A stretch of DNA of 64,000 nucleotides from Phoronis australis (taxonomy: Eukaryota; Animalia; Phoronida): positions 45,324 through 109,323 of the forward strand of contig NMRA01000180.1 of assembly GCA_002633005.1 (NCBI GenBank). The letters run 5' to 3'. Below the pieces are notes generated by a model that searched no databases, was not told where the DNA came from, and saw only the letters and a list, made by a program, of their open reading frames with translations. Numbering within the stretch: the first letter of the stretch is position 1; every line of letters begins with the position of its first letter. This document shows, in pieces, positions 20,839-52,190 of this stretch. Both the position numbers and the translations under genes were made by a program.

Positions 20839-21790
20839 CAGCACACATCACGAATTTTTGGCCGACCGGTCGGAAATTGGTCGACGGCCGGCCGTCGACC
20901 GGTCGGCAAATTTGCCGACCGGTCGGCTAAAAATTAGCCGACCGGCAGCCGCCCGCAGTGCCGACTCATAAGGCGACTCCCCAGCCGACCCTTCAGCCGA
21001 CCCTTCAGCCGACCGGCCATCAGCCGACCAGCTGGTCGGCTGCTATTTTTAGGCTANNNNNNNNNNNNNNNNNNNNNNNNNNNNNNNNNNNNNNNNNNNN
21101 NNNNNNNNNNNNNNNNNNNNNNNNNNNNNNNNNNNNNNNNNNNNNNNNNNNNNNNNNNNNNNNNNNNNNNNNNNNNNNNNNNNNNNNNNNNNNNNNNNNN
21201 NNNNNNNNNNNNNNNNNNNNNNNNNNNNNNNNNNNNNNNNNNNNNNNNNNNNNNNNNNNNNNNNNNNNNNNNNNNNNNNNNNNNNNNNNNNNNNNNNNNN
21301 NNNNNNNNNNNNNNNNNNNNNNNNNNNNNNNNNNNNNNNNNNNNNNNNNNNNNNNNNNNNNNNNNNNNNNNNNNNNNNNNNNNNNNNNNNNNNNNNNNNN
21401 NNNNNNNNNNNNNNNNNNNNNNNNNNNNNNNNNNNNNNNNNNNNNNNNNNNNNNNNNNNNNNNNNNNNNNNNNNNNNNNNNNNNNNNNNNNNNNNNNNNN
21501 NNNNNNNNNNNNNNNNNNNNNNNNNNNNNNNNNNNNNNNNNNNNNNNNNNNNNNNNNNNNNNNNNNNNNNNNNNAAAATGGTAATTGCCGACCAAGGACA
21601 CGCTTAATCCGAATTGGTCGTCTACGCTAGGCGACCATTTAGCCGACCCAAGTGCCGACCACAGAGGCGACTCAGCAGACGGCTCCTAGCCGACCGTTGT
21701 TGGTCGGCTGCTGGTCGGCTAGACGACCGGTCGACGGCCGGTCGTCGACCAATTTCCGACCGGTCGGCCAAAAATTCGTGATGTGTGCTG
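20839..21790. mobile_element. TA-flanked TIR DNA transposon with GCCGACC subterminal repeats (EnSpm- or Tc1-like, non-autonomous as far as visible)
   Basis: Near-perfect TIRs cagcacacatcacgaatttttggccgaccggtcggaaattggtcgacg at both ends; TA at 20837-38 and 21791-92; many GCCGACC/GGTCGGC motifs. The interior is hidden by the N gap. Confidence 0.85.
21057..21574. other. Assembly gap (518 N)
   Basis: Run of N characters. Confidence 1.
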
Positions 21791-28944: not shown

Positions 28945-29560
28945 ATGGAGTAATCCAAGCATGAAGCAACACCAAGCTCTAATCTTCGTGATGTTAACGA
29001 GTAGGATATTATTACGTAAGTTGACATTGTTATTATACCTGTTCCACACTGTTAGATGATTCCTTTATCCATCTATATTTGTTAATTCCTCTTGTATTCA
29101 ATTTCTGCAAAGAACAATGAATTAATCGGTACTATTGGTAGATACGAGAGTGCTGCATTATTGTTTGGTAACGCGGTGATGTTTGCGAAAGTTAACTGGA
29201 TATTTTATTAAAGCAGTATCCAGCTCATGTAGACATACATGTAGACAAGTTGGCCGAAATAACAAGTTTATAGCAAAATTCAATTTTAAAGAGTAGGCAA
29301 TTATATTTGTCTTTTTGCAGTAAACCTAAACGAGCATAAATGTTTGACATGATTTCTTGTGGGCCTGCCGGAGCTTCACCTCATGTACACTATGCGTGGT
29401 GCATGTACATGTAGGTGATCGCGGGTTTCAGAACAAAAGTCAGTTGATATTTATTCTCGTGACTTGACATTTGACCAGACCTTTGCAAATACTGAGCTGC
29501 ATTCCATAGACATGCACGATACAGTGGGATCGTGTGGATCGATCGTAAAGTGTGGCAAAA
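28945..29560 (+). repeat. Old dispersed repeat, homologous to 35200-35805
   Basis: Shared anchors tggagt(a/g)atccaagcatgaagc, tgttccaca, tccatcta, gcgaaagtt, cgggtttcagaa, ttattctcgtg, ctgagctgc, tagacatg, gatcgtaa in the same order. About 70% identical by eye. Confidence 0.65.
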
Positions 29561-33112: not shown

Positions 33113-34416
33113 AATCATAGTCGTTGTTTTCCTGATACAAAAACCATCGCTGACTTTGATTTTGAGACCGGGGTGACATTTGGTGCGTCCCCTTGTGAGA
33201 ACCATGGTTGTATCTCCTTTGACTGGACGTTTGTGAACATTTGCAGGTGTTTTCTTATAGATGTGACAATGGCGGCCAACGACTTTTTGGATCTCTCTGA
33301 CCACCACTGTGACCCTGGTGGCATTGTTGTACATGTACCTTTGCCTCTATATCTTCAGAGTTTCTTATTCTTTTTTTCTGAAATTTGTCAAGCAGGTTTC
33401 TGTAATGGAAATGACAGCATCGTTCCAATTTTTGACGTACTTCGCGCCAAAAATGGCTTATCAACACCACGTCGCAGTCGTGGGCGCCTTTCAACTCTCC
33501 TAATGTTGCTCATGATTACTTTTTGGCGCCCTGCAATACCAATTTGTGGATGCAATTCGATTCTCTTTCTATTCTCATAGGAAAGTTTGTGTTATGTTTT
33601 CTATGCCTGAGTAACATAGTATGCATACACAATGTATTACTACTATAGATGCTCCTTTAAATGTACAGAGTACTGTAAATTTGCAGAATTAATGTTTATC
33701 ATATTAATGCGCAGATATTTTAAAATGTGTTTATGAATTTGTCAATCTCAATATGGCGTGGGAAATATGTTATAAACATGCTAAGTCACGTTAACACGCC
33801 ATCTGTAGGAGGAGAAGAAGAGCCAAATTGTCGTATTTCGAAATTAAGGTTAAAATATGTAGGACCCTGTCGACAGATCTGTGTGTTTTGCCAAATATCT
33901 AAAAAAAGTACAGATTTTAACTGGGTAGAACTATAAATACCCTGAAAGTATATAATCCAGCAGTAGAATTTTATTTTTGAATTTTCACCAATACATTATT
34001 AATTGAGTCACGACACTATGACTTTTTAGTAGAGTTGGTAAAAAAAAACGTACCAGTGACATGATCACCATTATGAAAATCATGTAAGTCCGATTTTAAC
34101 TGTTTCTCATGCAAAAGAGAAACAATTTAAAAGCAATTCCTAACAGTGTTACACAATACCGCCACATATTGCTTGAGTGAATTCCAAGCGCGCCGTACTT
34201 GGCAACTGACAGGTAAGGTGCATTCAGCGATTGCCCGTGATTTCCATTTCTCGTGATCACTGTGTTTGGCAAAGTCACCCAGTTATTTAAAGCATCCCAA
34301 AGACAGCTTCTTTTTGCCTTTTCGCCTTAGGTGATTTTGCGTTTTTCGTTAGATTAGCGAGTTGGTCACGCGATATTTATAAAGTCTTGTTTCTACACAC
34401 GAGATCATAAATATAT

Positions 34417-35125
34417 TAGATTATTACATGTTCTCAGTCGTTATCCCCCGTTATCTAGGGCTCTCGTGGATTTTGTAGAATTATCACCCTCGTGGCGTTA
34501 CTATTTATACCACATACTGAACGAGAAACATTGCAATGAATCGATCTACCTTTCTCGACTCGCCTCGGCTTTGTAACTACTTTCTATGTCAGAGGCCCGG
34601 GGTCGGAGGTCGCGACCATTTAAGAAAAGCCGAACTATTTTTGTCAAATAATGCTTTTACTCAAAATCAATTGAAAATTTAAACAAAACAGAATTAAGTG
34701 AATATATAAATTAAGGTTTAACAACTATTATAGCTTACTACATATTTTATCACGCTGCGCTTCGACCGGTAAAATATCGTCTGCTAAAATAGATTACCAA
34801 TAGTAACTGAGTATCATGCTCAAGTCAAAGGATCCCGACGACACGATACCCGCATTCAAATTGGAGATCGGTGATTTACACAAGAGAGAACACGAGAAAA
34901 AAATCACAGAATTGAGATATAGTTTTTATGGAAATTATGCGTCTTTTTTCATAGCGTATAAATGTCGGTACAATGTCCTTTGCTGAACATGCGATTGTTG
35001 CGCGTGTTCATTTAAGTATCTATTTTCACGTTCGATGACGTCAGCCGCTGAGTGGTGTAGTGGTAAAGTCGGCGACTCGAAACTCTTGAAGCCCGGGTTC
35101 AAACCAGGCCTCGGTTTCCCGCCAA
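34417..35125 (+). mobile_element. Palindrome-headed dispersed repeat, copy 1 (one palindrome arm deleted), ending in a tRNA-like segment
   Basis: Collinear with 41811-42522 plus 43546-43650. Only one arm of the terminal palindrome remains. Confidence 0.75.
35047..35116 (+). pseudogene. tRNA-derived sequence (SINE-head-like)
   Basis: A-box-like tggtgtagtggt, B-box-like gggttcaaacc, partial acceptor pairing gctgag/ctcggt; D and anticodon stems are broken. A second, more decayed copy is at ~43570-43640. Confidence 0.55.
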
Positions 35126-36762
35126 AATGATATCTCACTAGTGAGATAACTAAATGGGTTACACGGTTGTATTCGATCAGTCTTCATTACACTGTATTTG
35201 TGGAGTGATCCAAGCATGAAGCGAGTCGGACACCTGGCGCTAATATTCCTGATTTGAACGTGTGGGATAGCATTGCTTAAGCTGCCATTTTTATCGGGCT
35301 TGTTCCACATTGTTAGCTGGTTCCATCATCCATCTACATGTATGTTTCATAAACTCACTCTCCTTTTCGGCACAGGACATTGAATAAATCTTTAGAACGA
35401 CGGCACTACCTGTTGAGACAAGGTTTTATTATTTTATGATAAGGGCGTCGTTCGCGAAAGTTTACTGGCTACTGCCACGTTATTCAAAGCAGTAAAAGCA
35501 AGAAGTAGGCTGATATGAGATGCTCGGAATAAGTTTATATCGAACTTCAGTTTCTTTGGACATTAAACACCACAGAGCATGACGCGATTTCTCAGTCGTG
35601 GGCCAGCTGGAGTTTCATCCCCGTTGTACTGTATATCCTCGGTTTGTGATAACGGGTTTCAGAATACATGTTGGAAACAAGAAGCTAGTTCTTATTCTCG
35701 TGGCCCTGACTTCTGACCGGACTTTCAAATATTCTGAGCTGCGTTCCGTAGACATGGACGATAGTGTTATCACATGCTTTGATCGTAACGCAGGGCAATA
35801 TCTCACAAAGACTTGGGTGATCAAGCCTATTTAATGCATACATGGAACCGACGGAAACCTGGCCATCATATCAAGAATGTGTGTGTGTGTGTACATATAT
35901 GCTTAAAACCATTTGTGTACAAACACACGAACGCGCACACAATGCACACACACACACACACACACACGAAATTATATATACTTTATTACTGGCTAATTAA
36001 GGTTTCCAATAGCACTTGCCTTCTACTTTCGGGGAATATATAACTTTATTTCCGTAAACGCAATTGTGTCGTAGATACCTGCCTAAATACGCAGCTCCAT
36101 CATGCCTATCACTTTGTTTGCGTGCCCTCAATTTACAAAAAACTTTGTATGAATAACCCATATCCAGTGCCATCCTTTGACAACCATTGTTTTCTGTCAA
36201 GTTCTGGAATGGTATCCCTCGAGAAGCCGAATGCGCGATGGGGGCTGGAATAAGACTAATGCGGAGTTACCACAAAGATTTCATAGTGTACCAAAGATGT
36301 CCGACTGTGACCTAAAATGGTATATAGTATCTTTGGTTACGAAACACATGTTTTTAGGCTACGGAAATTCCCGAATTATTCCGGATGCAGGTGTTGGCGC
36401 ATTTGGAACCCTTTAACTATTTTCGTAACTTATTTTTTTAGGTTACAGCAATAGGTGCTGAGACATTCCAGATTCTGTCGATAACGACCCACGGCCATCC
36501 AAACATTGACTCAGGGATCAACTGAAATAGAGTTGACCATATGTTAGCGTTCTGTCGCGCATTCATTAAGGCCTAAGTTGGCAATAATTGACTTTTTTCT
36601 AGAAAACCAGTTTTCACTCAAATGTTTTCTCACAATGTATGCATACTAGCTTAACTTCAAAAAGACAATGTTTCATTCCCTGGGGCATGTGCCTCTTCTA
36701 AGTCTGTCTGTGACAAGTTTTTAATTACATTTGATAAGTTCATTTGTCCTCCTGCTTTGCAG

Positions 36763-36919
36763 ACGCCGAAGCGTATTACCGCATTCACGTTAAAACGTCG
36801 GATGACTCAGGCCCGGGTGCCCACCACGTGGACATTATGCTCTACGGCCACCTCAGAGAAAAGGGGACAGACTGGATTAATATGAACACGCTAAATCACG
36901 AAGACTTCAAAAGGGGACG
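36763..36919 (+). CDS. Exon: PLAT/LH2 domain, N-terminal part (possible signal-cleavage site AEA|Y)
   Basis: tttgcag| acceptor, phase 1. (D)AEAYYRIHVKTSDDSGPGAHHVDIMLYGHLREKGTDWINMNTLNHEDFKRGR matches PLAT Y-x-I-x-V-x-T...V-x-I-x-L-Y-G...F-x-R-G. Donor cg|gtactg, phase 2. Confidence 0.8.
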
Positions 36920-39900
36920 GTACTGTAACTAAAAGACTGCAACTTAAACGTTATTTTCGGGATATAAAACGTTCACTTAAAATGATAATAAGCCCTGCTT
37001 TGAAGACTTTAGCCAAGTTTAGTTCTTTTACTTGCTCATTCCCCATGCTTGTCTTACTTCAGTGGTAAAAGCAGGGTTCAAGGAAAGATAATTACTGATT
37101 GAGTCATTAAAATATATAATGGTTTTGTGGTGTGTGAACATTCCTCACAGCTGGCATGCAACTCACCAAAAGCGTACATGTAGATATCTCTTACCAGTTT
37201 AGCATGTTTTGCAAAGTGTTTTCAAAACTTGCTCCGAGCATTTGCCGGTTGACATGTGTTACAGAGAATTATTTTGTGAGAGAAAATTGGATAGAAAATT
37301 TGTCGTACTATTTGTTAATAGGCCAAACCAAGGATCAGTCTCTGTATAAGTTTGCGTGTTGTTTTTTTCTACCAATTCCTGGAGTCGAGTGAATTGGAAA
37401 GAAATTATCCGTGACATCAACGATTGAGGTACATTAAAAATGTGTCCGAAATTGTATTCGCTTATTTGTTGTTTATTAGTCCGATTATACCATCTGTTAT
37501 CTACTTACACTAGGCTAATTGTTATCAATTGCCCATTAAATATCACCTCCTGGCATTTTTTTGCATTCGGCAAGGTACTTTTATGCGCCCACATATACAT
37601 AAATGTGGTCGTATTTTGTTGTCACTTTGTCCGGGCGTCCAGTTGATCATCTGTTCCGGTGTCCGGTCAATATCTCAAAAACCATTGGTCGGACTGTGAC
37701 GAAATTTGACAATATGGTATCGGGCACTAGAACGGTTCATGCCACTTTTCAATATGCTCGCGTCCTGGTGTAAGGTGGCGTAGCTTTTTCTGTATTTCTG
37801 GGGGAATATCCTTTCCGGATGAGAATTTTTCATTAACGAATTTCAATCAAACTGATCAAAAAAGTGAAGAATACGCTTGCACGATTGCATTTTGGGGCGG
37901 AATCGACCACTGCAGCACCTCCTGGTGGCCATTTGGTTCTTGACGAGGTCTTTTCAAATGTTGATTTGGGGAGAAGAGAGTTTCCGGGTGATGTCTAGAC
38001 AACCGATTGTCAGATAAACTTGCACAGAGGAAAGTGCAGCATGAGAATGCACCGGGCAATATTTGGTTTTCGTCGGACTTGACTATTGCAGTGCTTTCTA
38101 AAGGCAGTTTTCTGTGAGACTGTTTCCAAATGATGAAGCGAACCAATTGAAGGATGTCAATAAAGGTTGACACGAAAGTATGTGATCTCAATGCGCCGCT
38201 ACCATTAAATGTTCGTGCAGATCCGACTACTCCAGTACCTCCTAAGGCAGTTTTGTTCCGGACAAGGACTTCTGAAGTGCTGTTTTGGGGTAAAAGCCTC
38301 TCCGGGTGATATCTAAAGTGCCGCTTAACGGATTCCATTAAAACGTGACACAGAGGTACAGTATGTGATGAGATTACCCCGGCACAACTTGATTTTCGGG
38401 CCATTTTGAGTGAGGGGTTTACGTAATATATATAGATAAATGAGTGAAGGATTTCAATGAAAGTTGACAAAGAGGTTTGTACTGCAGTTACAATGCGGTG
38501 GCATCATTAATTTTTTTCGTGGATTCGACAAATGCAGCGCCTCATAGTGGCCAGTTTGTTTGATAGTGTTACCAGGTGAATATGTAAGAACTAAATGAAG
38601 GAATTCAATGAAAGCTGACACCGAGGTATATGAGGGCAATGGTGCGGCACCGTGAACTTTTCGGGAGGATTTGACTATTACAGAACCTCCTAGTAGCCAA
38701 TTAATTTTCGACATATGACCTTTCAATTGTTGTTAAGGTTAAGAGAGTTTCCGATGATATCTAAAGAACCAATAAACGGGTTTAATTGAAACTTACCACA
38801 GTGATAAACCTTAAATTGCACCCGCTCCATCTAGATTTTGGGCTGATTCAGCGACTGTAGCGCCTACTAGTGGCTATTTAGTTTGAAAGCGTCTCAAGAT
38901 GATATGCAGAGAGCGAGTGGTAGATTTTAATAAAAATTGAAGTCGATGCACGGGCATCATTAACTTTTCGGGCGGATTTGACACTTGCAGCACGTCGTAG
39001 TGGTCATTTTGATATCTTCTACGGACTATTCAGTGTTGTTTGACAGAGGGACTTTTTTAATAATTGCAGGCGGTTTGGTACACGTTGTTCCAGGCTGCGC
39101 ATGTGGGTCCATTGCACTTATCACCTGGAAATATTTTTGTGCTATATGAATACATAGTTAAAACCGAGCTGTTGACTCAAGGGTCTAGCAGTGTGGCTCG
39201 AACCCACGACCTCGAGTAAAGAAGGCGGGCACCATCACACTGGGCCACAATGCCTCCTCCTCAGATGGACGTTTCTGGCTGATATGAACTGAACCGACAG
39301 ACGAATTTTGATAAAACATGACACAGAAGAACACCATTCGATTTTCGAAGGCATTCGAGCACTGAAGCACCTCATACTAGCAGGTATAACTCGCAGATTT
39401 CAATGAAATTTTACTCAACAGTATATGATGACAATACGCCGACACCATTTGATTTTTGGGCTGATTCCATAACTGTAGCACCTCCTAATAAGCTCTTAGA
39501 AACATATCCTATGCGATGCACCATGGGCTCATGTCAACGTCACCGCGTTGCTCCGTTATTTAATACTTCCTGGGGAAGAACATGCACAGATGATACATGT
39601 ATCTAAAAAGCAAGCAACGGATTACAAGGGAAATTGACAAAGAGGTGTGGAACGGCATAGCAAGGAGTCCAGTCGGGTAATTTTGACCTCTTAATTGTAA
39701 TTCTGTCCTGTTGTCCTCTCAACTGTTAGATAACTCGAACATCTGTTCGTAGTTTGACACAAAGGTGTAGGGCATCGCAAGAGCTGGGCAATTTTTACTT
39801 TGTGTTGCACCCCAAGACAAGTGGGACTAGGATTTTTAGTAATTTGAGGAATTTATTTCCGGATGAAAAAAGAACTCGTCGCTGTACTTCAATGAAACTT

Positions 39901-42900
39901 TTGAAAAATGTTAACTCTTATATATTTAAACTACTGTGTGCGATGCGCAAGGTGGGCGCTAATCGACGATGTGCGATGCTGGTCTCCATTTTAAGACTCT
40001 TCTATTTTGCTCTCTTTTGTTCTTCTTCTTAGCACCGACGCCTTTCTTATTCCTGAAGATTGCGGGATCTTATTCAAAATCGCATTAAGACAGACGGGCG
40101 CAGACTGGAAACTTCAAGCAGTAAGTACGGATTTGACCAAAATGTGCTAGGCGTCTGTAGAAATGTATGTTTTTGTTATATTGTGCATGGTTACAGCAGA
40201 TTTTTACACTTCTGTAAACACAAAATAGTAGTACCAAGTGCAATCAATACTTTTCTTCAGAGATGTTCATCTGTCCGTTTGATAAACGAAGCCTATTGGC
40301 TCTGACATAAGCAGATGCTATCGCATGTCTTTCGCATTTTGGGCACTCGTTCTCATCTGAATCTCCGCCCGCTATTTGTTTCACAATAAACCAAATTATA
40401 CACTTTCTTAACCGCTTTTTGCATGTCGGGTACGTCTTTTTCATCGCCAGTCGGAGGTTCACGATCAAGGTACATGTACATGTTCATGACCGTGTGAATT
40501 TGCACCATTCTCCTATAGTCAAATTTGTTCTGACAGCATGAACTGTACAGTATGATAAATTCCATTTCAATTCACTGTCACCTCGACCATCTCTCAATGC
40601 ATAAGTGTGTGCTCTTGAAGGGTCTGTACAAGAATAAACCAGCAGTATCTAAGCGAATCCGTCATAAACGTTAGATTGCTTCTGTCCTTTCGATCGGCAT
40701 GCATTACAAGCAAAACTAATCTATTAACTTTCGTCCGCCGGTATCCTGCTTTGCGTGCAAGTGCAGACAGGCCAACCAATATTGACACTATTGATGTTTC
40801 CATATGACAGGTGAAAATTACGGACTACGACCGATCGAACACACAATACCAGTTCCACTGCGATTGCTCGATAAATGAACTGAACCCGTACGAAATTAAA
40901 CGGACCGGTAGGTACATGCACTTCGCTTTGTTTAGCATACTGAAAACAGAAATCATACTTGGTCTTTTCCTCTTATAAAATGATCTTTTAGCATGCGTTA
41001 ATGTTTCCGTTACCAAAACGAAGACAAAACAACCAGTACCTCAAAAAAACGTTTCATTGCGAATTGAAGTTTGAAGAAACCGGGTCTACGCATTGCCTGT
41101 ATCTTGAACTGTCTGCTCATTCGGCAACCATCAATTCAAGATCGGATGAGAGTTATATGAGCCCTAAAGAAACACCTCAACACTGACATCGAAACAGCGG
41201 CAAATGTGTCCCTTTAACATTTAAGAAGCAGTTTGCTTTGCTTCCATCTATACATGTAACACCACTGATCATTTCAGATCTGTGTCTAAAATATAGTCTC
41301 TTTACTTGAAAATTGACTAGAACGTTCACCAATTTTCTGGTGTATTTTGAATAAACTAACAAAATTTGTTCTCAAATAATGCAGCGCAATTGGTTTTTTA
41401 AAAGCACGAGTCCAGTATGTGTTCGTAGATTACATGTACACTCTAGGGAAAATTTTGCTTTATTTCCTTGCTTCCAAAATCATTAAAGTGTACATAAAGA
41501 AAATATGTAAAACAAGTACGAAAATCGTTGATTACACCAAACAATACAGCATTATACTTCGTTTTCGACCTGGAATTTATTGTATTTTTAACTGCAGTGA
41601 ACGGTGGATGGACCAGCTTCGGACCCTACACTCGATGCTCCACAACTTGCGGCACTGGTAGACGGACCAGACAGCGATCTTGTACCAATCCAAAGCCTTA
41701 CAATGGCGGAGCACATTGTAGTGGCCACAGCATTGAAACCAAGTCATGTTTTACAAAGAATTGTCCAGGTATATCCATAATACCAGGAATTTAATGCCTT
41801 CCTGATAAATATAGATTATTACATGGCGAAGTCGTTATCCCCGTAATCTAGAGCCCGAGTGGATTTTGGAGAATTATCACCCGAGGGGCGTTAGCCCCGA
41901 AGGCGATAATTCTTCAAATCCACGAGGGCTCTAGATAAGGGGGATAACGACTGAGAACATGTAATAATCTATTTGTACCACATACTAAACGAGAAACGCT
42001 GTAATGAATCGATTTACCTTTCTCGACTCGCCTCGGATTTATAACTACTTTCTATGTCAGAGGCCTCGAGTCGGAGGTAGGGACTTTTTAAGAAAACCCG
42101 AGTTATTTTTGTCAAAATAATGTTTTTACTCAAAACCAATTGAAAATTTCAACAAAACAGAAATAAAGTAAATCTATACATTAAGGTTTAGCAGCTATTA
42201 TACCTTAATTAACATTATATTACGCTAAATTTGGACCGGGAAAATATCGTCTGCTAAAGTTAGTTCAGTACCACAGGTTGCTGAGTATAATGCCCAAGCC
42301 AAAGGACGATATCAAAGAACGAATGCTGGTGTCGTGTCCCGACGACACGATCCCCGCATTCAAATTGGAGACTGATCCATGATTTACAAGTGAGAGAAAA
42401 TGAGAGGCAATGTTAACTGAATTAAAATATCGTTTTATGGAAATTATGCGTCTTATATTTCATAGCGTATAAATGTCGGTACAATGCCCTTCGTTAAACA
42501 TGCGATTGTTGCACGTGCTCATTAAACTCGGACAGCGGTAAAACTCTGACAAGTCTAAATAAACGTCAAATATATTAACAATCAAGATGCCTTTCCACTA
42601 AATGAAAAGATTATTCACTTCATTGAACAATAGTAGGGATTTATTTATCACCTCACTTGAATTACGACAAAGTTTCAACACATATGAGGCATACTCAGCA
42701 CCTTATGTCGCTCTGCCGTCTACTTCGCGTGGTGATTTTGAAAGACTGCGGTACGTACGCTGGCTTTTCCAAGTTTTATTTAGGTCACTTGGTCACTTGT
42801 CATGTAAATCAATTTGAATTTGAATTTTCTTGATGCATAACTCATCAGTATGCTGTTTTATGTGTTAATTTCAATAGAAGAACGCACAAAAAGCACGCTT

Positions 42901-45900
42901 TAATCAAAAAACGGGTGTCCGAATTTCCCTTCCAACTTTTTGTACGATGCAGGGAATTTCGGACACCATGTTTTCAGGCTACTAGTAAACTTTTCTTGGC
43001 GTTTTCTTGAGAGTTTCCTAATCAGGTGATGACCTTCTGTGTTAAGAGGTCAATTCAAAACTTAATTTGTCAACAACAATGGCGCTGTTTACCACATGGG
43101 TTGCACACAAATTGGTAATGGCGGATATACTTTTACGTTATTTACATGTATGTACCCAGGACATGATGATTTCTTAAATTTATTATTCATCTCATGATAA
43201 GACAGCTAAATAATACGTAAATTCATTTTTGAAATCATAATGTTCTATTATGTGCTTTGTCCGAGTTTTACCTATTCAGAATTTGCTGGTCCGAATTTCC
43301 CCAACAGTCTGTCCGACTTTCCCCACCTGCATCCGAATTTCCCCGATTTTGAGCATTGTTATTATTGTTAAAATTCGAAGGCATTGAAACTGAAGTACAT
43401 GTATTAACAAAGTATCTCATTGGATGGTTTCTCAAAAGATTTGCGTATATCCCATTACTCGTCTAATGTTATTAGCTGACACATAAACTTTCAGTGGCAG
43501 GTAAGCAAGTCGAGCTAGGTGGTTTCGTCCGAATTTACCCGAACTTCTATTTTCACGATCGATGACGTCAGCTAAGTGGTGCAGTGGTAAATTCTACGAC
43601 TCGAAACTCTTGCAGAGCGGTTTCGAAACCGGCCTCGGTTTCCCACCAACGTGTTATTTAACGGTTGTATTGGCCATTCCAGACTGACATTGTGGTATAC
43701 CTTGTATAGTGCAGATAGGTTTTGTCCTGGATGTAACAGAAGAAAAATGTCGTCTAAACCAAACATTAAACGGGCATCTGCAAGTATTCGTGAACATTCA
43801 CGTCTGTTAATTCAAGTCGGGTTATTATAAAACGAATACGTTTGCAAGCTCTTCGGGCGGGTACGAATTCTTCGAATACTGTACACCTCCACCAAACGTG
43901 TGATTTGTTTTGTAATATTGTCACCATCCACTGCCGTAATCAAAAGTTTTGATCTTGTTGAGGCCCAAATGTGAAATTGTGGACTTGAAATGAGACGCAA
44001 CCATGAGGCAATTTGCAATGAACAGGATATCCAAACCCAAATTGATATGAATTGCGACCGGGGAGTATTTTGTGTGATAAACTTGGGTCCACGTGCCTGT
44101 TGTATACCCCATATCGCTTGCTCCGTGGCATCTTCTGAACCTTAAATCGATGTAGAAGATATTTACTTTAAACGAGATACGAGAATCGTCTTCCAGAGGT
44201 ATGCGTGAATGAATGGTGTACGTATTTGTTTGTTTGTTTCTGTGATTGTTTGTAAATGATAATAAATACCTTAAAAAAGGATTTATAAACTGTTCTTCGT
44301 TGGTACATTATTCAGTTGACGGAGGCTGGAGCGGTTGGTCAGGTTGGTATTCATGTACAGTGCACTGCGGCGGAGGTACGCAAACACGTGTGCGCAGCTG
44401 TACAAATCCTCGACCTGCTTACGACGGTTCAACATGTCCTGGGTCTGCCAAAGAAGTACGTGACTGTAACACTCATAACTGTAGTGGTAAATATTCACTT
44501 TCATTACTTGTTTTGATGATTTGAGATTATGGTAATCTTAAAATGTCGTCTCCTTGAAATCTTTATGCAAGAGTACTGTACATTTAAATTTCATTCAAGC
44601 GACGAATGAAAAACTAGCATTTTATAAACGCAGTGCAGTACTAAGATAACCTAAAACATCATTTGAATAGTGTGCCATTATACAATGTACATGTAATTAT
44701 AAAAATTATTTTAGTTGACGGTGGGTGGACGGACTGGAGCCATTGGTCAGACTGCTCGACGTCGTGTGGCAACGGTAATGAAAGTTCAAGTAGAAGCTGT
44801 ACCAATCCTGCACCCGCACACGGCGGGCAAGGATGTGTTGGGAACGAGACGAGAATCAGGAAATGCAAACTGGAGGAATGCCCTGTAAACGGCGGTTGGA
44901 GTCATTGGAGTGACTGGGGTCCGTGCTCGATATCGTGCGGGGAGGGTACACAAACCAGCTCGCAAAACTGCAGCAACCCGGCGCCAGCCAACAGCGGGCT
45001 TGACTGTGTCGGAAACAGAACGAGAACAATTTCTTGCAAACTGAGCGAATGTCCAATAGATGGCGTATGGACGGCTTGGTCTGAGTGGAGTTCTTGTTCT
45101 CAGAAGTGCGGAGACGGAATCCAGAGGAGCTTCAGGAATTGTTCAGATCCAAAACCACAGCATAATGGGCTATATTGTCCAGGAGAAAACCAGCGAAATC
45201 TGTCATGCATAATCAAAAACTGTTCAATAGACGGAGGCTGGAACTCGTGGAGTCAGTGGAGCACTTGCTCCACGTCTTGTGGAGTGGGTAATCAAACAAG
45301 ACATCGCAAATGTACCAGTCCTCTTCCAATGTTTGGAGGGCAGGATTGCGTAGGCAATAACTCAACAATCAGAGAGTGTAATGTTAGAGACTGTCCAATA
45401 AATGGGTCTTGGAGTGTCTGGGCTCCATGGACCGACTGTTCGACAACATGTGGTGGCGGAGTGCAAAATCGGACGAGAACGTGTACAGACCCAACACCAA
45501 AATTTGGTGGGTGGAACTGTAGCGGTAATAATTCAGAAATACGAATTTGTGGATTAATAAACTGCCCCGTTAACGGAAGTTGGGGACCTTGGAAAGAATG
45601 GGGTCCCTGTTCCTCTTCTTGTAGTCAGGGCCTGCAAACTAGGAGCAGATTTTGTGACAGCCCAGAACCGTCGTTTGGAGGCAACAACTGTTCCGGTAAC
45701 TATACTGAAGTGCGTTCGTGCATCGTGAAACATTGTCCTGTTGACGGCGAATGGGAATCTTGGAGTAACTGGGGTGGATGTTCTAGAACTTGCGGTGAAG
45801 GTATGCATTTCAGATTCAGAACATGTGGTAACCCTGCGCCACAATACGGGGGACGAAACTGCTCTGGGAACGATACCATGGCACAACAATGTATCAAAAA

Positions 45901-48900
45901 GCACTGTCCAGTCGATGGAGGATGGACGCCATGGAGTGGGTGGGGTACGTGTTCTAGTAAGTGCGGCGTAGGGGTGCAGGTCAGAAACAGAACGTGTATA
46001 AATCCAGCGCCAATGTATGGAGGACAAAATTGTTCCGGCAACAATACTATAACACAGGTGTGTTTCTTAAAAGACTGTCCCGTAGACGGAAAGTGGTCAG
46101 CTTGGAGTAACTGGGGGAAATGTTCCAAAACTTGCGGTTCAGGTGTACGTGTGAGGAATAGAACATGTGACACTCCTGCACCGGAATATGGTGGAAGAAA
46201 TTGTTCTGGTAACTCTACGATGATGCAGTCGTGCTTCGTAAAACATTGCCCTGTCGACGGATGTTGGGAGGATTGGAGTGAATGGGGCGCATGCTCAAGA
46301 ACCTGTGGTGAAGGGATTCAGGTCCGGAATAGAAAATGCAATCGCCCGGTACCAACGTATGGAGGGCGCAATTGTTCCGGCAACAATACTTTGACACAAT
46401 CGTGCCTCGTAGCACACTGCTCAGTCGATGGAGGTTGGGGGGCTTGGAGTGAGTGGAGTGCTTGCTCAACAAGTTGTGGCGCAGGTGTTCAAGTCACCAA
46501 AAGAAGATGCGATAACCCTGCAGCAGCTTACGGTGGACACAACTGTACAGGTAATGGCACTGACACAAAATTATGCTACGTTATTGAGTGTCCCGTTGAC
46601 GGCGGATGGACTTCGTGGAACGGTTGGAGTCGATGTTCACTCTCGTGTGGGACGGGGATGCAACAGAATACAAGAATGTGTTCCAATCCTGCCCCGGCTC
46701 ATGGGGGAAAATATTGCATGGGAAGCAAAAGGGTTACCCGGTCGTGTCGTCTTAGACACTGTGCAGTCGATGGTGGATGGACCTCTTGGGCTGGTTGGTC
46801 GTCGTGCTCTGCATCATGCGGCAGCGGTGGACAGGAGCGCAGAAGAACGTGCACAAATCCTGAACCCGCTCATGGCGGCACAAGCTGTAATGGGAATAAT
46901 ACTGCAACACAAAAATGTTTTCTCCAACATTGTCCAGGTTTGTTTTCGATTAAGTAAATTACGTTGTTTCAAAAGACTGGGTTATTGGATAATTTAAATG
47001 TTGAGTTCCAAGAAGTATTTTTGTTTTTAAGAATAGAATTGTTTTATGCTAATTGAAAGCAAGTCCGAAGGTTGTTCGTCGAATTTTAACCGAAACTAAT
47101 AAAACGTTGGGTTGATGTTGGTGTAAACATTTAACCATCATAATTTTCAGTGAATGGAGGTTGGAACACTTGGAATAGGTGGGGTGCGTGCAGTGCGACA
47201 TGTGGTGGCGGTGTGCAGGTCAGGAACCGCACTTGTAATAAACCTGAGCCCCAGTACAACGGAACAGACTGCGATGGTGCTGGTTCCGAAACTCTCGGCT
47301 GCAATTTCCATGATTGCCCAGGTAAAATGTTTCTACTCATCAGTCGAATCAAATCGCAATTTCTTTTTGAAATTGTCTTAACTATGTTGTTAGCACACCA
47401 TGCGCTGTAGATTTTCAACAAAATGACTTCAACTATGCGCTTTTGAAGTGAATGCATTTTTGTATTATACATGTATTTGACGAGGTGGGAATACTTGGGG
47501 ATCATGGGGAGATTGCACACTAAGTTGTGGAGGAGGTCAGCAGTTGCGTACATACAGAAGGATGTGTACATTACAAACCCTACTCCCTCCCATTACGAGG
47601 AAGATTGCAAGGGACAAATTATCCTGGCTCCGACAAAAACTAACGAGTCTGGAGCACTCTTAACTGTAGATGTAAATATTGGCATTTATTACATATTTTT
47701 TAATTTGATAAAATGTTATCTTTTTGCATTTTTATGTATTAGCGTATGGCATACTTAAGGTACATTCATACTGTATGGTGAAGTGAAGAGGGTGGGATAG
47801 AAAAGTTAACTTATAACCTCGTCATACTTAACAAAGAACATGATACAATCAAAATCATTTCAGTTGACGGCGGTTGGGCTGACTGGAGCCAGTGGTCAGA
47901 CTGTTCGACGTCGTGTGGCAAGGGTAACGAAAGTTCAAGTAGAACGTGCTCTGATCCTGCACCCGCTCATGGCGGGCGAAGATGTGTTGGGAAGGAGACG
48001 AGAATCAGGAAATGTAAGCTGAAGGAATGTCCTGTAAACGGCGGATGGAGTCAATGGAGCTACTGGAGTCCGTGCTCTAAATCGTGCGGGAAGGGTACAC
48101 AAACAAGCTCCCGAAACTGCAGCAACCCGTTGCCAGCCAACAGCGGGCTTGACTGTGTCGGAAACGGTACGAGAACAAATTCTTGCAAACTGAGCGAATG
48201 TCCAATAGATGGCGTATGGACGGCTTGGTCTGAGTGGAGTTCTTGTTCTCAGAAGTGCGGAGACGGAATCCAGAGGAGCTTCAGGAATTGTTCAGATCCA
48301 GAACCACAGCATAATGGGCTATATTGTCCAGGAGATAACCAGCGAAATCGGTCATGCGTAATCAAAAACTGTTCAATAAACGGAGGCTGGAACTCGTGGA
48401 GTCAGTGGGGCACTTGCTCCACGTCTTGTGGAGTGGGTAATCAAACAAGACATCGCAAATGTACCAATCCTCTTCCAATGTTTGGAGGGCAGCATTGCGT
48501 AGGCAATAACTCAACAGTCAGAGAGTGTAATGTTAGAGACTGTCCAGTAAATGGGTCTTGGAGTGTCTGGGCTCCATGGACCGACTGTTCGACAACATGT
48601 GGTGGCGGAGTGCAAAATCGAACAAGAACGTGTACAGACCCAACACCAAAATTTGGTGGGTGGCACTGTAGCGGTAATAATTCAGAAATACGAATTTGTG
48701 GATTAATAAACTGCCCCGTTAACGGAAGTTGGGGACTGTGGATCGAATGGGGTCCCTGTTCCTCTTCTTGTAACCAGGGCCTGCAAACTAGGAGGAGATT
48801 TTGTGACAGCCCAGAACCATCGTTTGGAGGCAACAACTGTTCCGGTAACTATACTGAAGTGCGTTCGTGCATCGTGAAACATTGTCCTGTTGACGGCGAA

Positions 48901-51900
48901 TGGGAATCTTGGAGTAATTGGGGTGGATGTTCTAGAACTTGCGGTGAAGGTATGCATTTCAGATTCAGAACATGTAGTAACCCTGCGCCACAGTACGGGG
49001 GACGAAACTGCTCTGGGAACGACACCATGGCACAACAATGTATCAAAAAGCACTGTCCAGTCGATGGAGGATGGACGCCATGGAGTGGGTGGGGTACGTG
49101 TTCTAGTACGTGCGGTGTAGGGGTGCAGGTCAGAAATAGAACGTGTATAATTCCAGCGCCAATGTATGGAGGACAAAATTGTTCCGGCAACAATACTATA
49201 ACACAGGTGTGTTTCTTGAAAGACTGTCCCGTAGACGGAAAGTGGTCAGCTTGGAATAACTGGGGGAAATGTTCCAAAACTTGCGGTTCAGGTGTACGTG
49301 TGAGGAATAGAACATGTGACACTCCTGCACCGGAATATGGTGGAAGAAATTGTTCTGGTAACACTACGATGATGCAGTCGTGCTTCGTAAAACATTGCCC
49401 TGTCGACGGAGGTTGGGGTGATTGGAGTGAATGGGGCGCATGCTCAAGAACCTGTGGTGAAGGGATTCAGATCCGGAATAGAAAATGCAATCGCCCGGTA
49501 CCAAGGTATGGAGGGCGCAATTGTTCCGGCAACAATACTTTGACACAGTCGTGCCTCATAGAACACTGCTCAGTCGATGGATGTTGGGGGGCTTGGAGTG
49601 AGTGGAGTGCCTGCTCAACAAGTTGTGGCGCAGGTGTTCAAGTCACCAATAGAAGATGCGATAACCCTGCAGCAGCTAACGGTGGACACAACTGTACAGG
49701 TAATGGCACTGACACAAAATTATGCTACGTTATTGAGTGTCCAGTTGACGGCGGATGGACTTCGTGGAACGGTTGGAGTCCATGTTCACTCTCGTGTGGG
49801 ACGGGGATGCAACAGAATACAAGAATATGTTCCAATCCTGCCCCGGCTCATGGGGGAAATAATTGCATGGGAAGCAAAAGGGTCACACGGTCGTGTCGTC
49901 TTAGACACTGTGCAGTCGATGGTGGATGGACCTCTTGGACGGGTTGGTCGTCGTGCTCTGCATCCTGCGGCAGCGGTGGACAGGAGCGCAGAAGAACGTG
50001 CACAAATCCTGAACCCGCTCATGGCGGCACAAGCTGTAATGGGAATAATACTGCAACACAAAAATGTTTTCTCCGACATTGTCCAGGTTTGTGTCCGATT
50101 ATATTAATTGGGATTTTCAAAAGACTGGACACATGGTTCTATAAAATCACGTGGTTAATGAAAATTTTGTTCTTTGATTTTAGCTGCAACCAACAATGCG
50201 TCTGAAGTCTGCTGGTGTAAACATTGAATCATAATCATATTTTTAGTGAATGGAGGTTGGAACAGTTGGAATGAGTGGGTTGCTTGCAGTGCAACATGTG
50301 GCGATGGTGTGCAGGTCAGGAAGCCCACTTGCAACAAACCTGAGCCCCAATATAACGGAACAGATTGCATTGGCGATGGTTCCGAAAGTTTCAGATGCAA
50401 TTTCCAAATTTGCCCAGTTAGACTTTGTCTGCTCATTTTTGAAATTGTCTATGTTGTTACCAAACCACGCGCTGTGGGTTTTCAACAAAAATTCCCAAAT
50501 GTGTTCTCTTGCAGTGAATACAGGAGTTGTTTTGTAATTCAGTAAACGGGAGTTGAAATACTTGGGGATCATGGAGTGACTGCCCATTAATTTGTGACGA
50601 AGGTCAGCAGCTGAGTAATAGGACAAGTTTATGTATAACTCAACCCCCGCCCATGACGGGGATGATTGCAAAGGACCCAAAGCTTGTTATCGGGATTGTC
50701 ACAGTAACTACTGCCCAGGTATGACCTGGCAAGTGGTTGTCGACGTCACAACGGCTGAGATATATGCTACTCATTTTTCCTATTAAAAGCACCAAACAAT
50801 TTGCATTTGAATTTGAATTGCGATAACTTGACAATAAGTGCGCCAACTTTCCATTACGCTCGTTCTTTTCAGTCATGATCGCTCACCTTCGCTGGCGTCA
50901 ATCAATACCAAAAATCATTAGGACTAACTCGTGGTCAGGATAAGTTCATAGTACCACCATTGTCGCGACAGATCTTTTTCCTACGTTTCTGGCATGATTC
51001 CGACATTTTCATAAGGTTCCCTGACTGGATTTCATCTGGTTTAGATGGGCAACACTCCCAAGACGTCATCCGGTTACGTGAATGGCATGTTTTTTTTGCA
51101 GTCGACGGTCAATGGAGTAAATGGTCAGGCTGGTCAAAATGTAGCCAGTCATGTGGAAAGGGTGAGCAGAAAAGACTGCGTAGCTGTGACGATCCTTCTA
51201 ACTCTTCCGGTGGATCGGGTTGCAAAGGAGACAATAACGAAATGCGGGAATGTACAGTTGAAAAGTTTTGCGAGAAGAAAGCGTCTGACGGCAACCCTGT
51301 CATATCACAGGCTACCCCGCGGGATAGGACGGCCAAAATAATTGCACTATCATCAACTGCTGGCGTGATGTTCGTGGCTATAGTTGTCATTCCACCTTGC
51401 ATTTTTTTCACAAGGTGAGTGTAACGCTGCCGAGAGATACATGCACAGTGAAACCTTTGCCACAGGAGTGAACTTCCTGATCGCTCTCAAACAAAATCAC
51501 ACTCGCAATAATACGCCACACAGAACCTTCGCTACGAGCAAAAACCTTAACCATGCTCAAATTGCCTTTAACCAAGCGTCAGTTCAAGCGCAAAAACCTC
51601 GTGGTACATGTACTTTTAAAGGTGTGTCTGCGGCGTAGTTTTAGTTCAACTTCCGTTGTTAGTGAAGATGGTGTATTTTTCCTAAAAAGGCCTTCGGCCT
51701 ACATGTACATTACAAATATACAATAAACAGAGAGTACGGGATATCTAAACCACCTGTGTTCTTTATGTTGGACACATGTAGGTAAGACTTTTTTCGTGGA
51801 GAATGGCAAGGTTCCGTTGCTGTGACGTCTGCTTCCGCAGTACTTGTTTTCGGTACGTGATAAGGATTCCACTACCATCTCTGAGACTTTATAGTGCAAC

Positions 51901-52190
51901 AACGTTATTTAAATTTCCCTCCAGTGTCTATTTTAATCATCACGATTGGTGGTTGAATATTTACATGTATGTCATGCTTTAGTTCTGGTTGACATGAGTG
52001 CATGCTATATTTCAGGAGAAATTCATGGAAACAAAAGATCGGTTTATGCTGCACGAGAAGCCAGCTTGACTTTTCGTCTCACAATACCTCCTTCGATTCG
52101 ACATTTGCCAATACCGGTGCACACAGGGAAGACAATGCAGGGCTCGGTGAAACAGGCGACATTCTAAATCTCCCCGTTATAAACGTTTAG
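36763..52190 (+). CDS. Spliced gene (5' end missing): PLAT/LH2 - 30x TSP1 - TM - cytoplasmic tail, type I membrane glycoprotein (hemicentin/SCO-spondin-like TSP1 array)
   Basis: Exons 36763-36919, 40033-40120, 40811-40907, 41598-41768, 44316-44486, 44715-46937, 47151-47321, 47864-50086, 51102-51414, 52016-52190. All have AG/GT boundaries and compatible phases, giving one open frame of ~1,930 codons. Confidence 0.85.
37581..39985 (+). mobile_element. Old Helentron-type element (family C) with internally repeated modules, intronic
   Basis: 5' palindrome atgcgcccacat...atgtggtcgtat; TGTCCGG-like microsatellite; repeated modules (gatttcaatgaaagttgacac...gcagcacctcctagtggcc) at ~38150, 38445, 38595, 38920, 39395; 3' sub-TIR gtgggcgc at 39952 followed by a small hairpin. 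Confidence 0.55.
39190..39250 (-). pseudogene. tRNA-derived SINE-head-like fragment
   Basis: Minus strand tgtggcccagtgtg (A-box-like) ... gtgggttcgagcc (B-box). Confidence 0.5.
40033..40120 (+). CDS. Exon: PLAT domain, middle part
   Basis: Long polypyrimidine tract + ag. TDAFLIPEDCGILFKIALRQTGADWKLQA matches PLAT TD-x-F...D-x-G...I-x-L...W-x-L. Donor gca|gtaagt. Phase 2 in, phase 0 out. Absent from the ORF track. Confidence 0.85.
40811..40907 (+). CDS. Exon: PLAT domain, C-terminal part
   Basis: gacag| VKITDYDRSNTQYQFHCDCSINELNPYEIKRT matches PLAT V-x-I-x-D...Y-x-F-x-C. Donor g|gtaggt. Phase 0 in, phase 1 out, joining in frame to VNGGW. Confidence 0.85.
41598..41768 (+). CDS. Exon: TSP1 repeat 1 (171 bp, phase 1-1)
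   Basis: VNGGWTSFGPYTRCSTTCGTGRRTRQRSCTNPKPYNGGAHCSGHSIETKSCFTKNCP; ctgcag| and |gtatat. Confidence 0.92.
41811..43650 (+). mobile_element. Palindrome-headed dispersed repeat, copy 2 (intronic, interrupted by a nested MITE)
   Basis: 162-bp imperfect palindrome 41811-41972 (atagattattacatg...gggcgttagcccc...catgtaataatctat), then a body collinear with 34500-35015. Homology resumes at 43546 after the insertion. Confidence 0.8.
42523..43545. mobile_element. Nested ~1-kb TIR element with GTCCGAATTTCCCC subterminal repeats
   Basis: Absent from the homologous position in copy 1 (~35015). Ends taaactcggac / gtccgaatttacccgaac are inverted. Motif recurs at ~42917, 42952 (reverse), 43289, 43311, 43332, 43527. 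Confidence 0.7.
44316..44486 (+). CDS. Exon: TSP1 repeat 2 (171 bp, phase 1-1)
   Basis: VDGGWSGWSGWYSCTVHCGGGTQTRVRSCTNPRPAYDGSTCPGSAKEVRDCNTHNCS; ttcag| and |gtaaat. Confidence 0.92.
44715..46937 (+). CDS. Giant exon A1: 13 tandem TSP1 repeats (2,223 bp = 13 x 171)
   Basis: Open frame of 13 57-aa units, each with WxxWxxWxxCSxxC...C...C...C...C; ttttag| and |gtttgt; phase 1-1. Confidence 0.95.
47151..47321 (+). CDS. Exon B1: single TSP1 repeat (171 bp, phase 1-1)
   Basis: VNGGWNTWNRWGACSATCGGGVQVRNRTCNKPEPQYNGTDCDGAGSETLGCNFHDCP; tttcag| and |gtaaaa. Confidence 0.88.
47477..47630 (+). pseudogene. TSP1 pseudo-exon C1
   Basis: NTWGSWGDCTLSCGGGQQLR...TNPTPSHYEEDCKG is recognisable across frameshifts. 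No AG acceptor or GT donor at the expected positions. Confidence 0.8.
47864..50086 (+). CDS. Giant exon A2: 13 tandem TSP1 repeats (duplicate of A1, offset 3,149 bp)
   Basis: tttcag| at 47863. Open from VDGGWADWSQW to FLRHCP; |gtttgt. Same 2,223-bp length, no stops or indels. Confidence 0.95.
50247..50417 (+). pseudogene. TSP1 exon B2, probably non-functional (splice donor lost)
   Basis: Open 57-codon paralogue of B1, but followed by ttagac where B1 has gtaaaa. The conserved RNR motif has changed to RKP. Confidence 0.65.
50543..50718 (+). pseudogene. TSP1 pseudo-exon C2
   Basis: AG and GT sites intact, but TGA at 50554-56 replaces the first Trp and the length is 176 bp (171+5, frameshift). 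Confidence 0.85.
51102..51414 (+). CDS. Exon: last TSP1 repeat, linker and transmembrane helix
   Basis: VDGQWSKWSGWSKCSQSCGKG...CTVEKFC, then IIALSSTAGVMFVAIVVIPPCIFF; ttttgcag| and ag|gtgagt (phase 2). Confidence 0.9.
52016..52190 (+). CDS. Terminal exon: cytoplasmic tail
   Basis: tttcag| phase 2 gives RRNSWKQKIGLCCTRSQLDFSSHNTSFDSTFANTGAHREDNAGLGETGDILNLPVINV*. Basic residues after the TM fit the positive-inside rule. Confidence 0.75.

What the first reader, a model, noticed from the sequence alone, without database searches (positions are those of the whole stretch)
36763..52190. Cell-surface protein with an extracellular PLAT/LH2 head on a 30-repeat TSP1 stalk
Seen: three small exons (36763-36919, 40033-40120, 40811-40907) splice with matching phases into a complete PLAT domain that continues in frame into 30 TSP1 repeats, a TM helix and a short tail. 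Established: PLAT is a lipid- and protein-binding beta-sandwich (lipoxygenases, lipases, polycystin-1, LOXHD1); in membrane proteins such as polycystin-1 it is cytoplasmic. TSP1 modules are elongated, about 5-6 nm each. Inference: a single membrane- or lipid-binding head held up to ~150 nm from the cell, acting as a tether or sensor for microbes, gametes or lipid particles. I know of no characterised protein with this architecture, and automated annotation would probably call it hemicentin-like and miss the head.
Basis: partly seen in the sequence, partly recalled or inferred. Interest (0 to 1): 0.85.

Follow-up and report, generated by a model that had tools for sequence, protein, structure and literature searches.

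The report
PLAT-tipped thrombospondin-repeat surface protein
An animal gene, transcribed and spliced in its front half, is predicted to encode a cell-surface protein that would carry a PLAT domain (a lipid- or protein-binding fold) at the tip of up to 30 thrombospondin repeats; the parts and the head-on-a-stalk plan are familiar, but this head on such a stalk was not found described.

Summary
The observation largely holds. Ten exons give an open 1928-residue frame: PLAT head, 30 TSP1 repeats, one hydrophobic helix, 58-residue tail. The spliced head scores 57 bits on a PLAT profile (shuffles at most 10). RNA data show three junctions directly: PLAT exon 1-2, TSP1 exons 1-2 and 2-3. The junction from PLAT to TSP1 was not seen directly, though all three PLAT exons are covered on the same strand in the same runs. 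The second 13-repeat block, the membrane exon and the tail exon were never laid, and read depth hints that one block per mRNA is possible. No signal-peptide exon was found, so 'extracellular' is inferred. No relative with PLAT appeared among 240 long TSP1-array proteins, and four paper searches found no such architecture. But head-plus-TSP1-stalk proteins are common in marine invertebrates, membrane-anchored secretory PLAT proteins are published, and this scan earlier noted a secreted PLAT-TSP1 protein in another genome (Owenia). Verdict: real, probably undescribed combination of known parts; likely a non-signalling capture or adhesion receptor, ligand untested. Interest 0.42.

The parts
36763..36919 (+). 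PLAT exon 1 (first about 50 profile positions); starts in phase 1, so at least one 5' exon is missing
   Evidence: Pfam PLAT 14.5 bits; multi-PLAT hits; joined to 40033 in an X1 contig
40033..40120 (+). PLAT exon 2
   Evidence: best of 46 candidate segments on the PLAT profile; in the X1 contig with 2 differences in 91 letters
40811..40907 (+). PLAT exon 3, ends in phase 1 like the TSP1 exons
   Evidence: best of 32 candidate segments, lifts the score from 37.3 to 57.3 bits; sense-strand depth in its bin in X2 and X3; junctions not seen directly
41598..41768 (+). TSP1 repeat 1: net charge +7, no N-glycan site
   Evidence: Pfam TSP_1 45 bits; spliced to 44316 in 17 and 10 reads; charge
44316..44486 (+). 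TSP1 repeat 2
   Evidence: motif and six Cys; both junctions seen in reads
44715..46937 (+). Intronless block of 13 TSP1 repeats (block 1)
   Evidence: Pfam 13 stretches; sense-strand depth about 5-15 in X2 and X3 over its full bins; a block-1-type X1 contig
47151..47321 (+). TSP1 repeat 16, single exon; low or no read depth, may be skipped
   Evidence: AG/GT, open, six Cys; depth 0 in X2 and about 2 in X3 over its 3' 119 bases
47480..47640 (+). Degenerate TSP1 exon copy (frame broken; approximate limits)
47864..50086 (+). Second intronless block of 13 TSP1 repeats (block 2), tandem duplicate of block 1
   Evidence: 95.8% identical, dN/dS 0.41; Pfam 13 stretches; splicing not tested
50247..50417 (+). 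Open TSP1 exon whose donor reads TT; left out of the 30-repeat model
50543..50720 (+). Degenerate TSP1 exon copy (stop and frameshift; approximate limits)
51102..51414 (+). TSP1 repeat 30, short linker and the predicted transmembrane helix
   Evidence: Pfam TSP_1 43 bits; most hydrophobic 19-mer of the protein, mean 2.34; splicing not tested
52016..52190 (+). Predicted cytoplasmic tail and stop; no Pfam family, no tyrosine, a Cys-Cys pair near the membrane
   Evidence: splicing not tested

Best explanation
This is a transcribed, spliced animal gene that likely encodes a single-pass surface protein whose predicted PLAT beta-sandwich would sit at the tip of a likely heavily glycosylated rod of up to 30 TSP1 repeats and would likely capture a lipid surface or partner protein at a distance from the cell. 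Shown: the exons, the open frame, the PLAT and TSP1 identity of the modules, three splice junctions. Inferred: a missing 5' signal-peptide exon puts head and stalk outside (type I); 57-residue repeats without linkers, with 63 N-glycan sites, 58 WxxW and 26 CxxS/TC motifs, form a stiff spacer; the PLAT head together with the basic, unglycosylated first repeat forms the binding tip, probably without the calcium switch of lipoxygenase-type PLAT domains; the 58-residue tail has no tyrosine or catalytic domain, so the protein would tether or internalise rather than signal on its own. The stalk was nearly doubled by a tandem duplication of a 13-repeat exon in this lineage.
For: Open 1928-residue frame with matched phases. 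Head 57.3 bits against at most 10.1 for shuffles, each exon adding score (25.4, 37.3, 57.3); exons 2+3, which played no part in choosing the profile's source proteins, score 21.8 alone. Junction reads and sense-strand depth on all three PLAT exons in X2 (about 4.6, 4.3, 5.3) and X3 (2.7, 1.3, 2.4), none in X4, where the TSP1 exons are also near zero. dN/dS 0.41 between the blocks and all six Cys kept in 30 of 30 repeats argue both blocks are under selection. The same plan with other heads exists: mussel P0180 (three SRCR, 12 TSP1, hydrophobic helix, tail) and P0175. Secretory-side PLAT proteins with one TM are published, and plant PLAT1/PLAFP is reported to bind phosphatidic acid. Tandem TSRs of properdin are described as stiff and rod-like.
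Against: The PLAT-to-TSP1 junction and the 40120/40811 junction were not seen in reads. No signal-peptide exon stands above chance (2 candidates against 1 in the reverse-strand control). Depth on block 1 (8-15 in X2) is no higher than on the single-copy exon 41598 (19 at 41746), whereas two blocks in one mRNA should roughly double it; PLAT exons show only about a quarter of that depth, which may be read loss on short divergent exons or a shorter transcript. The head keeps 10 of 17 conserved columns and lacks the T of the GTD loop and the HD-G loop, so its binding surface may differ from lipid-binding PLATs. THSD7A domains 1-2 form a V, so TSR chains need not be straight. No binding data, no fold prediction, no orthologue.
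Confidence: 0.5

Rival explanations
1. Same protein plan but a shorter stalk: the two 13-repeat blocks are alternative exons, or only one is used or present in most individuals, giving about 16-17 repeats and half the reach.
For: Block-1 depth about equal to single-copy exon depth, low depth on exon 47151; both blocks are phase 1-1 and can be skipped without a frameshift; neighbouring duplicated exons are decaying.
Confidence: 0.3
2. The stalk is the working part: a glycocalyx, mucus-layer or adhesion protein of the THSD7A or coadhesin kind, in which PLAT is a protein-docking or oligomerising cap with no lipid ligand.
For: 108 of 240 relatives carry 20 or more TSP1 repeats with many different heads or none; 63 sequons; loss of conserved PLAT loop residues; three Cys in the head and one extra Cys in repeats 12 and 27 could form interchain bonds; PLAT also mediates protein contacts.
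Against: The head is kept whole over three exons at the very tip, free of glycan sites, next to a basic unglycosylated repeat, which suits a binding tip.
Confidence: 0.3
3. The PLAT exons belong to a separate small transcript, or are included only in a minor isoform, and the main product is a TSP1-only membrane protein.
For: Junction 40907/41598 not displayed; PLAT exon depth lower than exon 41598 depth.
Against: Exon 3 has no stop and ends in a phase-1 GT donor matching the next acceptor; PLAT and TSP1 depth rise and fall together across the three raw-read runs; TSP1 exon 1 has no start codon context of its own in the model.
Confidence: 0.08
4. The second block is an assembly artefact (two alleles placed in tandem).
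For: The species is very polymorphic: reads lie below 96% identity on the PLAT exons; the blocks are 95.8% identical.
Against: The flanking introns differ by many substitutions and indels, the neighbouring single exons differ at dS 0.40, and divergence is concentrated in the first two repeats (23 and 16 differences against 2-8 elsewhere), the pattern of an old tandem duplicate with a homogenised core; no N gap at the junction.
Confidence: 0.07

Closest known systems
Marine-invertebrate 'head + TSP1 array (+ membrane anchor)' proteins auto-named SCO-spondin-like, hemicentin-like or coadhesin-like, e.g. Mytilus P0180 (3 SRCR, 12 TSP1), P0175 (16 TSP1), P0092 (24 TSP1), P0001 (SEA + TSP1 array)
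   Same: Long arrays of the same six-Cys TSP1 repeat, often glycan-rich; 18 of 240 have a hydrophobic segment after the last repeat.
   Different: None of the 240 carries PLAT; best identity 49%; the tail matches none of them. They are database records; I saw no functional study of them.
THSD7A (human)
   Same: Glycosylated single-pass protein whose ectodomain is almost all TSRs (21 predicted) with a short tail (10.1101/2023.05.03.539264, passages).
   Different: THSD7A alternates two TSR types and the passages name no other head domain; here all 30 repeats are of one 57-residue type and a PLAT domain leads.
Single-PLAT secretory proteins: Arabidopsis PLAT1/PLAFP and mite TuPLAT10
   Same: One PLAT domain with predicted signal peptide and one TM helix; PLAFP is reported to bind phosphatidic acid (passages).
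   Different: Under 200 residues, no stalk; no sequence relationship was tested.
Plasmodium CCp3/LAP1
   Same: N-terminal LH2 (PLAT) domain heading a multidomain adhesive protein (PMC10892792, passages).
   Different: LCCL, SR and LamG domains instead of TSP1.
Owenia fusiformis PLAT-3xTSP1-chitin-binding protein (scan note e1-7275478, unchecked here)
   Same: PLAT followed by TSP1 repeats in a reportedly secreted protein.
   Different: Three repeats, chitin-binding end, no membrane anchor reported; I could not obtain its sequence, so homology is untested.
Polycystin-1 and LOXHD1-type multi-PLAT proteins
   Same: The PLAT fold; the best PLAT hits of exon 1 are 8- and 9-PLAT proteins at 36% identity.
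   Different: No REJ, GPS or channel domain, only one PLAT in the window, and it precedes the only hydrophobic helix.

Membership tests
PLAT/LH2 domain (PF01477) | Profile match over nearly the whole domain | tested here: met
   57.3 bits over positions 3-107 of 123 of a profile from 16 Pfam-confirmed PLAT domains; shuffles at most 10.1
PLAT/LH2 domain (PF01477) | Pfam gathering score (23 bits) on the spliced domain | not testable with these tools
   only single exons could be scanned: exon 1 14.5 bits, exons 2 and 3 no hit
PLAT/LH2 domain (PF01477) | Eight-stranded beta-sandwich fold | not tested
   the spliced head could not be folded; an alternating-hydrophobicity test gave p 0.03, weak support only
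Calcium-dependent membrane-binding PLAT (5-lipoxygenase type) | Acidic calcium ligands (Asn43, Asp44, Glu46 in 5-LO) and exposed Trp residues (PMC5113960) | tested here: inconclusive
   against the profile consensus the head has K for E in the FERG motif and lacks the TD and HD loop residues; mapping these to 5-LO numbering is recalled, no lipoxygenase was aligned, and one domain of P0123 also reads FKRG
TSP1 repeat (PF00090) | WxxWxxW/C motif, six Cys, profile above cut-off | tested here: met
Hemicentin | vWA domain, long Ig array, G2F and EGF modules (recalled) | tested here: not met
   none in the eight exons scanned or in 128 further ORFs of the window; a 5' part outside the window cannot be excluded
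SCO-spondin | vWD, LDLa, TIL and cystine-knot domains beside TSP1, secreted (recalled) | tested here: not met
   hydrophobic helix and tail present
THSD7A/B | [quoted passage not shown] | tested here: not met
   30 uniform 57-residue repeats
Type I membrane protein | N-terminal signal peptide | tested here: inconclusive
   5' exon not identified; 2 candidates against 1 in control
Type I membrane protein | Single hydrophobic helix near the C-terminus followed by basic residues | tested here: met
   19-mer mean hydropathy 2.34, followed by RR; hydropathy only, no topology predictor
Polycystin-1 family | REJ and GPS ectodomain, PLAT after the first TM, channel domain | tested here: not met
   family architecture from PMC4890752 passages

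The most novel reading that the evidence does not exclude
A long-range membrane probe: a calcium-independent PLAT tip plus a basic first repeat reads lipids or partner proteins on microbes, gametes or dying cells about 100-150 nm from the cell, with reach tuned by duplicating or alternatively splicing a 13-repeat exon, and with a fast-evolving head; together with the Owenia protein it would be one member of an undescribed invertebrate family of extracellular PLAT-TSP1 recognition proteins.
Probability: 0.2. Interest if true: 0.7.

Novelty: new variant of a known kind. Interest (0 to 1): 0.42.

Why it matters
PLAT domains are mostly studied inside cells or on secreted enzymes. A PLAT head on a TSP1 spacer would add a lipid- or membrane-recognising tip to the set of heads (SRCR, vWA, SEA, PAN, lectin) that marine invertebrates mount on such stalks, and it offers an isolated 113-residue PLAT for testing what a domain lacking the usual loop residues binds. 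It also shows how annotation misses such heads: each of the three exons alone is below the Pfam cut-off. It does not by itself reveal new chemistry or a new pathway.

Tried and rejected
No whole genome was held, so paralogues and the 5' exon outside the window could not be sought. Exon 1 found nothing in the word-indexed protein search of 91-2000 residue proteins or among PDB sequences at E up to 10. P0121, the top hit, is a repetitive protein without PLAT and was left out of the profile. The second read-laying used a 96% cut-off that removed almost all PLAT-exon reads: my misjudgement; it shows divergence, not absence. No listed holder was on record as RNA; X2-X4 came in by species label and X1 is only guessed to be RNA. 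The Atlas could not read exon 1; with a PLAT domain of P0122 it showed five PLAT clusters, none listing TSP1, which says little. A scan of prokaryotic genomes with two TSP1 repeats found no relative and a family search without a genome handle failed. Signal-peptide candidates 9771-9843 and 28961-29015 are not above chance and the second lies in a repeat. Of 310 ORFs of 55 residues or more outside the TSP1 blocks, 128 were scanned; none passed a Pfam cut-off. An architecture search with a whole-head profile in the large databases was not run, so PLAT-TSP1 proteins with few repeats would have been missed. No fold or complex job was run. Papers read without finding a PLAT-TSP1 protein: PMC12549020 (passages and 10 supplements), PMC4890752 (passages, 12 of 27 supplements), PMC6626399 (passages), PMC11796336 (passages). 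The 5 nm length per repeat is recalled; one search gave no source.
Full report
Observation. The gene lies on the + strand. Exons 36763-36919, 40033-40120, 40811-40907, 41598-41768, 44316-44486, 44715-46937, 47151-47321, 47864-50086, 51102-51414 and 52016-52190 have AG acceptors, the nine internal ones GT donors, and join into one open frame of 1928 residues with 30 TSP1 repeats. The repeats follow each other at exactly 57 residues (29 of 29 intervals), each with six Cys, two with a seventh. Pfam confirms 1, 13, 13 and 1 TSP_1 stretches in the four TSP1 exons scanned. A further open TSP1 exon at 50247-50417 has a TT donor and is left out; with it the count is 31. The most hydrophobic 19-mer (mean 2.34) lies after the last repeat and is followed by a tail of 58 residues. 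The first exon starts in phase 1, so the 5' end is missing; a scan found 2 signal-peptide-like candidates upstream against 1 in the reverse-strand control.

Is the head PLAT? Exon 1 alone matches Pfam PLAT positions 1-47 at 14.5 bits, under the cut-off of 23; exons 2 and 3 alone match nothing. Against 1.84 billion representatives exon 1 has 3 hits at E up to 0.001 and none at 1e-10: two are proteins with 8 and 9 PLAT domains from a leech and a flatworm, one is a repetitive protein without PLAT that I dropped. A profile from 16 PLAT domains of the two proteins scores the spliced head at 57.3 bits over positions 3-107 of 123; exon 1 gives 25.4, exons 1+2 37.3, exons 2+3 21.8; the best of 5000 shuffles gives 10.1. 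Exon 2 ranks first of 46 and exon 3 first of 32 alternative open AG..GT segments of the right phase (next best 30.3 and 42.6). No second PLAT appears in the six frames of the window. The source proteins were chosen through exon 1, so its score is favoured; those of exons 2 and 3 are not. The head keeps 10 of 17 well-conserved columns and lacks the T of the GTD loop and the HD-G loop, and reads FKRG where the consensus has FERG. 5-lipoxygenase binds calcium through Asn43, Asp44 and Glu46 (PMC5113960, passages); that these correspond to the FERG region is recalled, not aligned here.

Expression. Four runs under one species label were laid on 35400-47600 at 88% identity. An X1 contig joins 36816-36918 to 40032-40122 with 0 and 2 differences, which is the exon 1-2 junction; it then leaves the intron after the two letters that the intron and exon 3 share. 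Junction 41768/44316 is seen in 17 (X2) and 10 (X3) reads and 44486/44715 in 6 and 5, all with the first mate on the minus strand, as expected for a plus-strand RNA; none in X4. Bin depth converted to exon depth is about 4.6, 4.3, 5.3 (X2), 2.7, 1.3, 2.4 (X3) and 0 (X4) on the PLAT exons, assuming all minus-mate depth of a bin lies on its exon. Only 15 of 45 joints were displayed, and 40120/40811 and 40907/41598 were not among them. The second laying, at 96%, lost nearly all PLAT-exon reads and showed only the loose end at 41768 running into exon 44316 (14 and 9 reads, 28 of 30 letters). So the PLAT-to-TSP1 link is strongly implied but not seen, and X2 and X3 carry alleles or come from a population more than 4% from the window in the head. 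Four of the five listed variants in repeat 1 change a codon's amino acid: too few to claim selection. Nothing 3' of 47600 was laid.

The stalk. 44682-47615 and 47831-50676 are 88.8% identical. The two 13-repeat exons are 95.8% identical with dN/dS 0.41; the neighbouring single exons differ at dS 0.40 and the introns by many indels, which fits an old tandem duplication better than two alleles. Two more exon copies are decayed. One X1 contig is of block-1 type (1 of 23 diagnostic places has the block-2 letter). Against the 30-repeat mRNA: depth on block 1 (8-15 in X2, 5-13 in X3) is no higher than on single-copy exon 41598 (19 and 11 at position 41746), although block-2 reads should also have landed there, and exon 47151 is barely covered. 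The frame has 63 N-glycan sequons, 58 WxxW and 26 CxxS/TC motifs, no RGD and no furin-type site. Repeat 1 is basic (+7) and has no sequon; neither has the head. At about 5 nm per repeat (recalled; the THSD7A two-domain fragment spans 9.5-11.5 nm) 30 repeats would reach at most about 150 nm, 16-17 about 80 nm. Properdin TSRs are described as stiff and rod-like (PMC2781399, passages), while THSD7A domains 1-2 form a V.

Relatives. Block 1 found 722 proteins of 1296-3700 residues and 890 of 407-1295 at E up to 1e-50; I saw the best 120 of each. Best identity is 49%, so no orthologue is on record among them. None of the 240 lists PF01477 or matches my PLAT profile or the head; 108 of 240 have 20 or more repeats, 39 have 30 or more, and 18 have a hydrophobic segment after the last repeat. 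Their other domains include SEA, vWA, PAN, IgGFc-binding, LDLa, MAM, SRCR, lectin and chitin-binding (accessions; names recalled except SRCR). Mussel P0180 (three SRCR, 12 TSP1, helix, tail) has the same plan with another head. These searches rank by repeat number, so PLAT-TSP1 proteins with few repeats would be missed. The scan's own note e1-7275478 reports a secreted PLAT-3xTSP1-chitin-binding protein in Owenia; I could not check it. The source organism is probably a marine invertebrate (inference from the hits).

Literature. Four searches pairing PLAT or LH2 with thrombospondin terms gave 2, 2, 48 (30 listed) and 0 papers; the ones I opened describe no PLAT-TSP1 protein (15 of 27 supplements of PMC4890752 not searched). 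The library lacks most subscription papers. Precedents for PLAT on the secretory side: Arabidopsis PLAT1, predicted signal peptide and one TM (PMC4232524, passages); mite TuPLAT10, likewise, with plant PLAFP cited as binding phosphatidic acid (10.64898/2026.05.13.724795, passages); Plasmodium CCp3/LAP1 with an N-terminal LH2 domain (PMC10892792, passages). THSD7A is a type I protein with 21 predicted TSRs (10.1101/2023.05.03.539264, passages). Astacin-TSP1 proteins on ascidian sperm (PMC6353882, PMC11673157; listing and start of abstract only) show TSP1-carried heads acting in fertilisation.

Mechanism and verdict. Most likely (0.5) a type I capture or adhesion receptor: glycosylated TSP1 spacer, PLAT plus basic first repeat as binding tip, probably calcium-independent, and a tail without tyrosine or enzyme that has a Cys-Cys pair, an acidic di-hydrophobic stretch and a hydrophobic C-terminal end resembling palmitoylation, sorting and PDZ-binding motifs (recalled motifs, untested). 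The rivals are not all exclusive: a shorter stalk (0.3), a structural coat with a protein-docking cap (0.3), PLAT exons not joined (0.08), artefactual second block (0.07). It is not hemicentin, SCO-spondin, THSD7 or polycystin by the features tested. It is a real and apparently undescribed combination of two common domains on a common plan, known from one genome, with no ligand evidence: new variant of a known kind, interest 0.42.

Noticed in passing
window 47480-47640, 50247-50417, 50543-50720: Three TSP1 exon copies in stages of decay (lost donor, frameshift, stop) beside the duplicated block: exon birth and death in the stalk.
   Followed up: partly
window 44715-46937 and 47864-50086: One extra, seventh Cys in repeat 12 and another in repeat 27, at non-equivalent repeats of the two blocks; divergence between the blocks is concentrated in their first two repeats.
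   Followed up: no
window 36763-41768: RNA reads of X2 and X3 lie under 96% identity on the PLAT exons, and most listed variants in repeat 1 change amino acids: high polymorphism or a sister population.
   Followed up: partly
window 16459-17709 and 18339-19618: Inverted repeat pair of about 1.25 kb at 91% identity with internal repeats, probably a transposon.
   Followed up: no
window 3708-3905 and 7189-7458: THAP-domain-like fragments below the Pfam cut-off, likely transposon relics.
   Followed up: no
window 39060-39260, 41805-42526, 34407-35133: Interspersed repeat families that draw many RNA reads on both strands and crowd the junction tables.
   Followed up: no
window 21057-21574: 518-base N gap upstream of the gene that could hide the missing 5' exon.
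   Followed up: no
P0175, P0213, P0222, P0092 (Mytilus): A mussel family with signal peptide, a short Cys- and Arg-rich head without Pfam match, 14-25 TSP1 repeats, a TM helix and an acidic Tyr-rich tail (P0092 lacks its N-terminus).
   Followed up: partly
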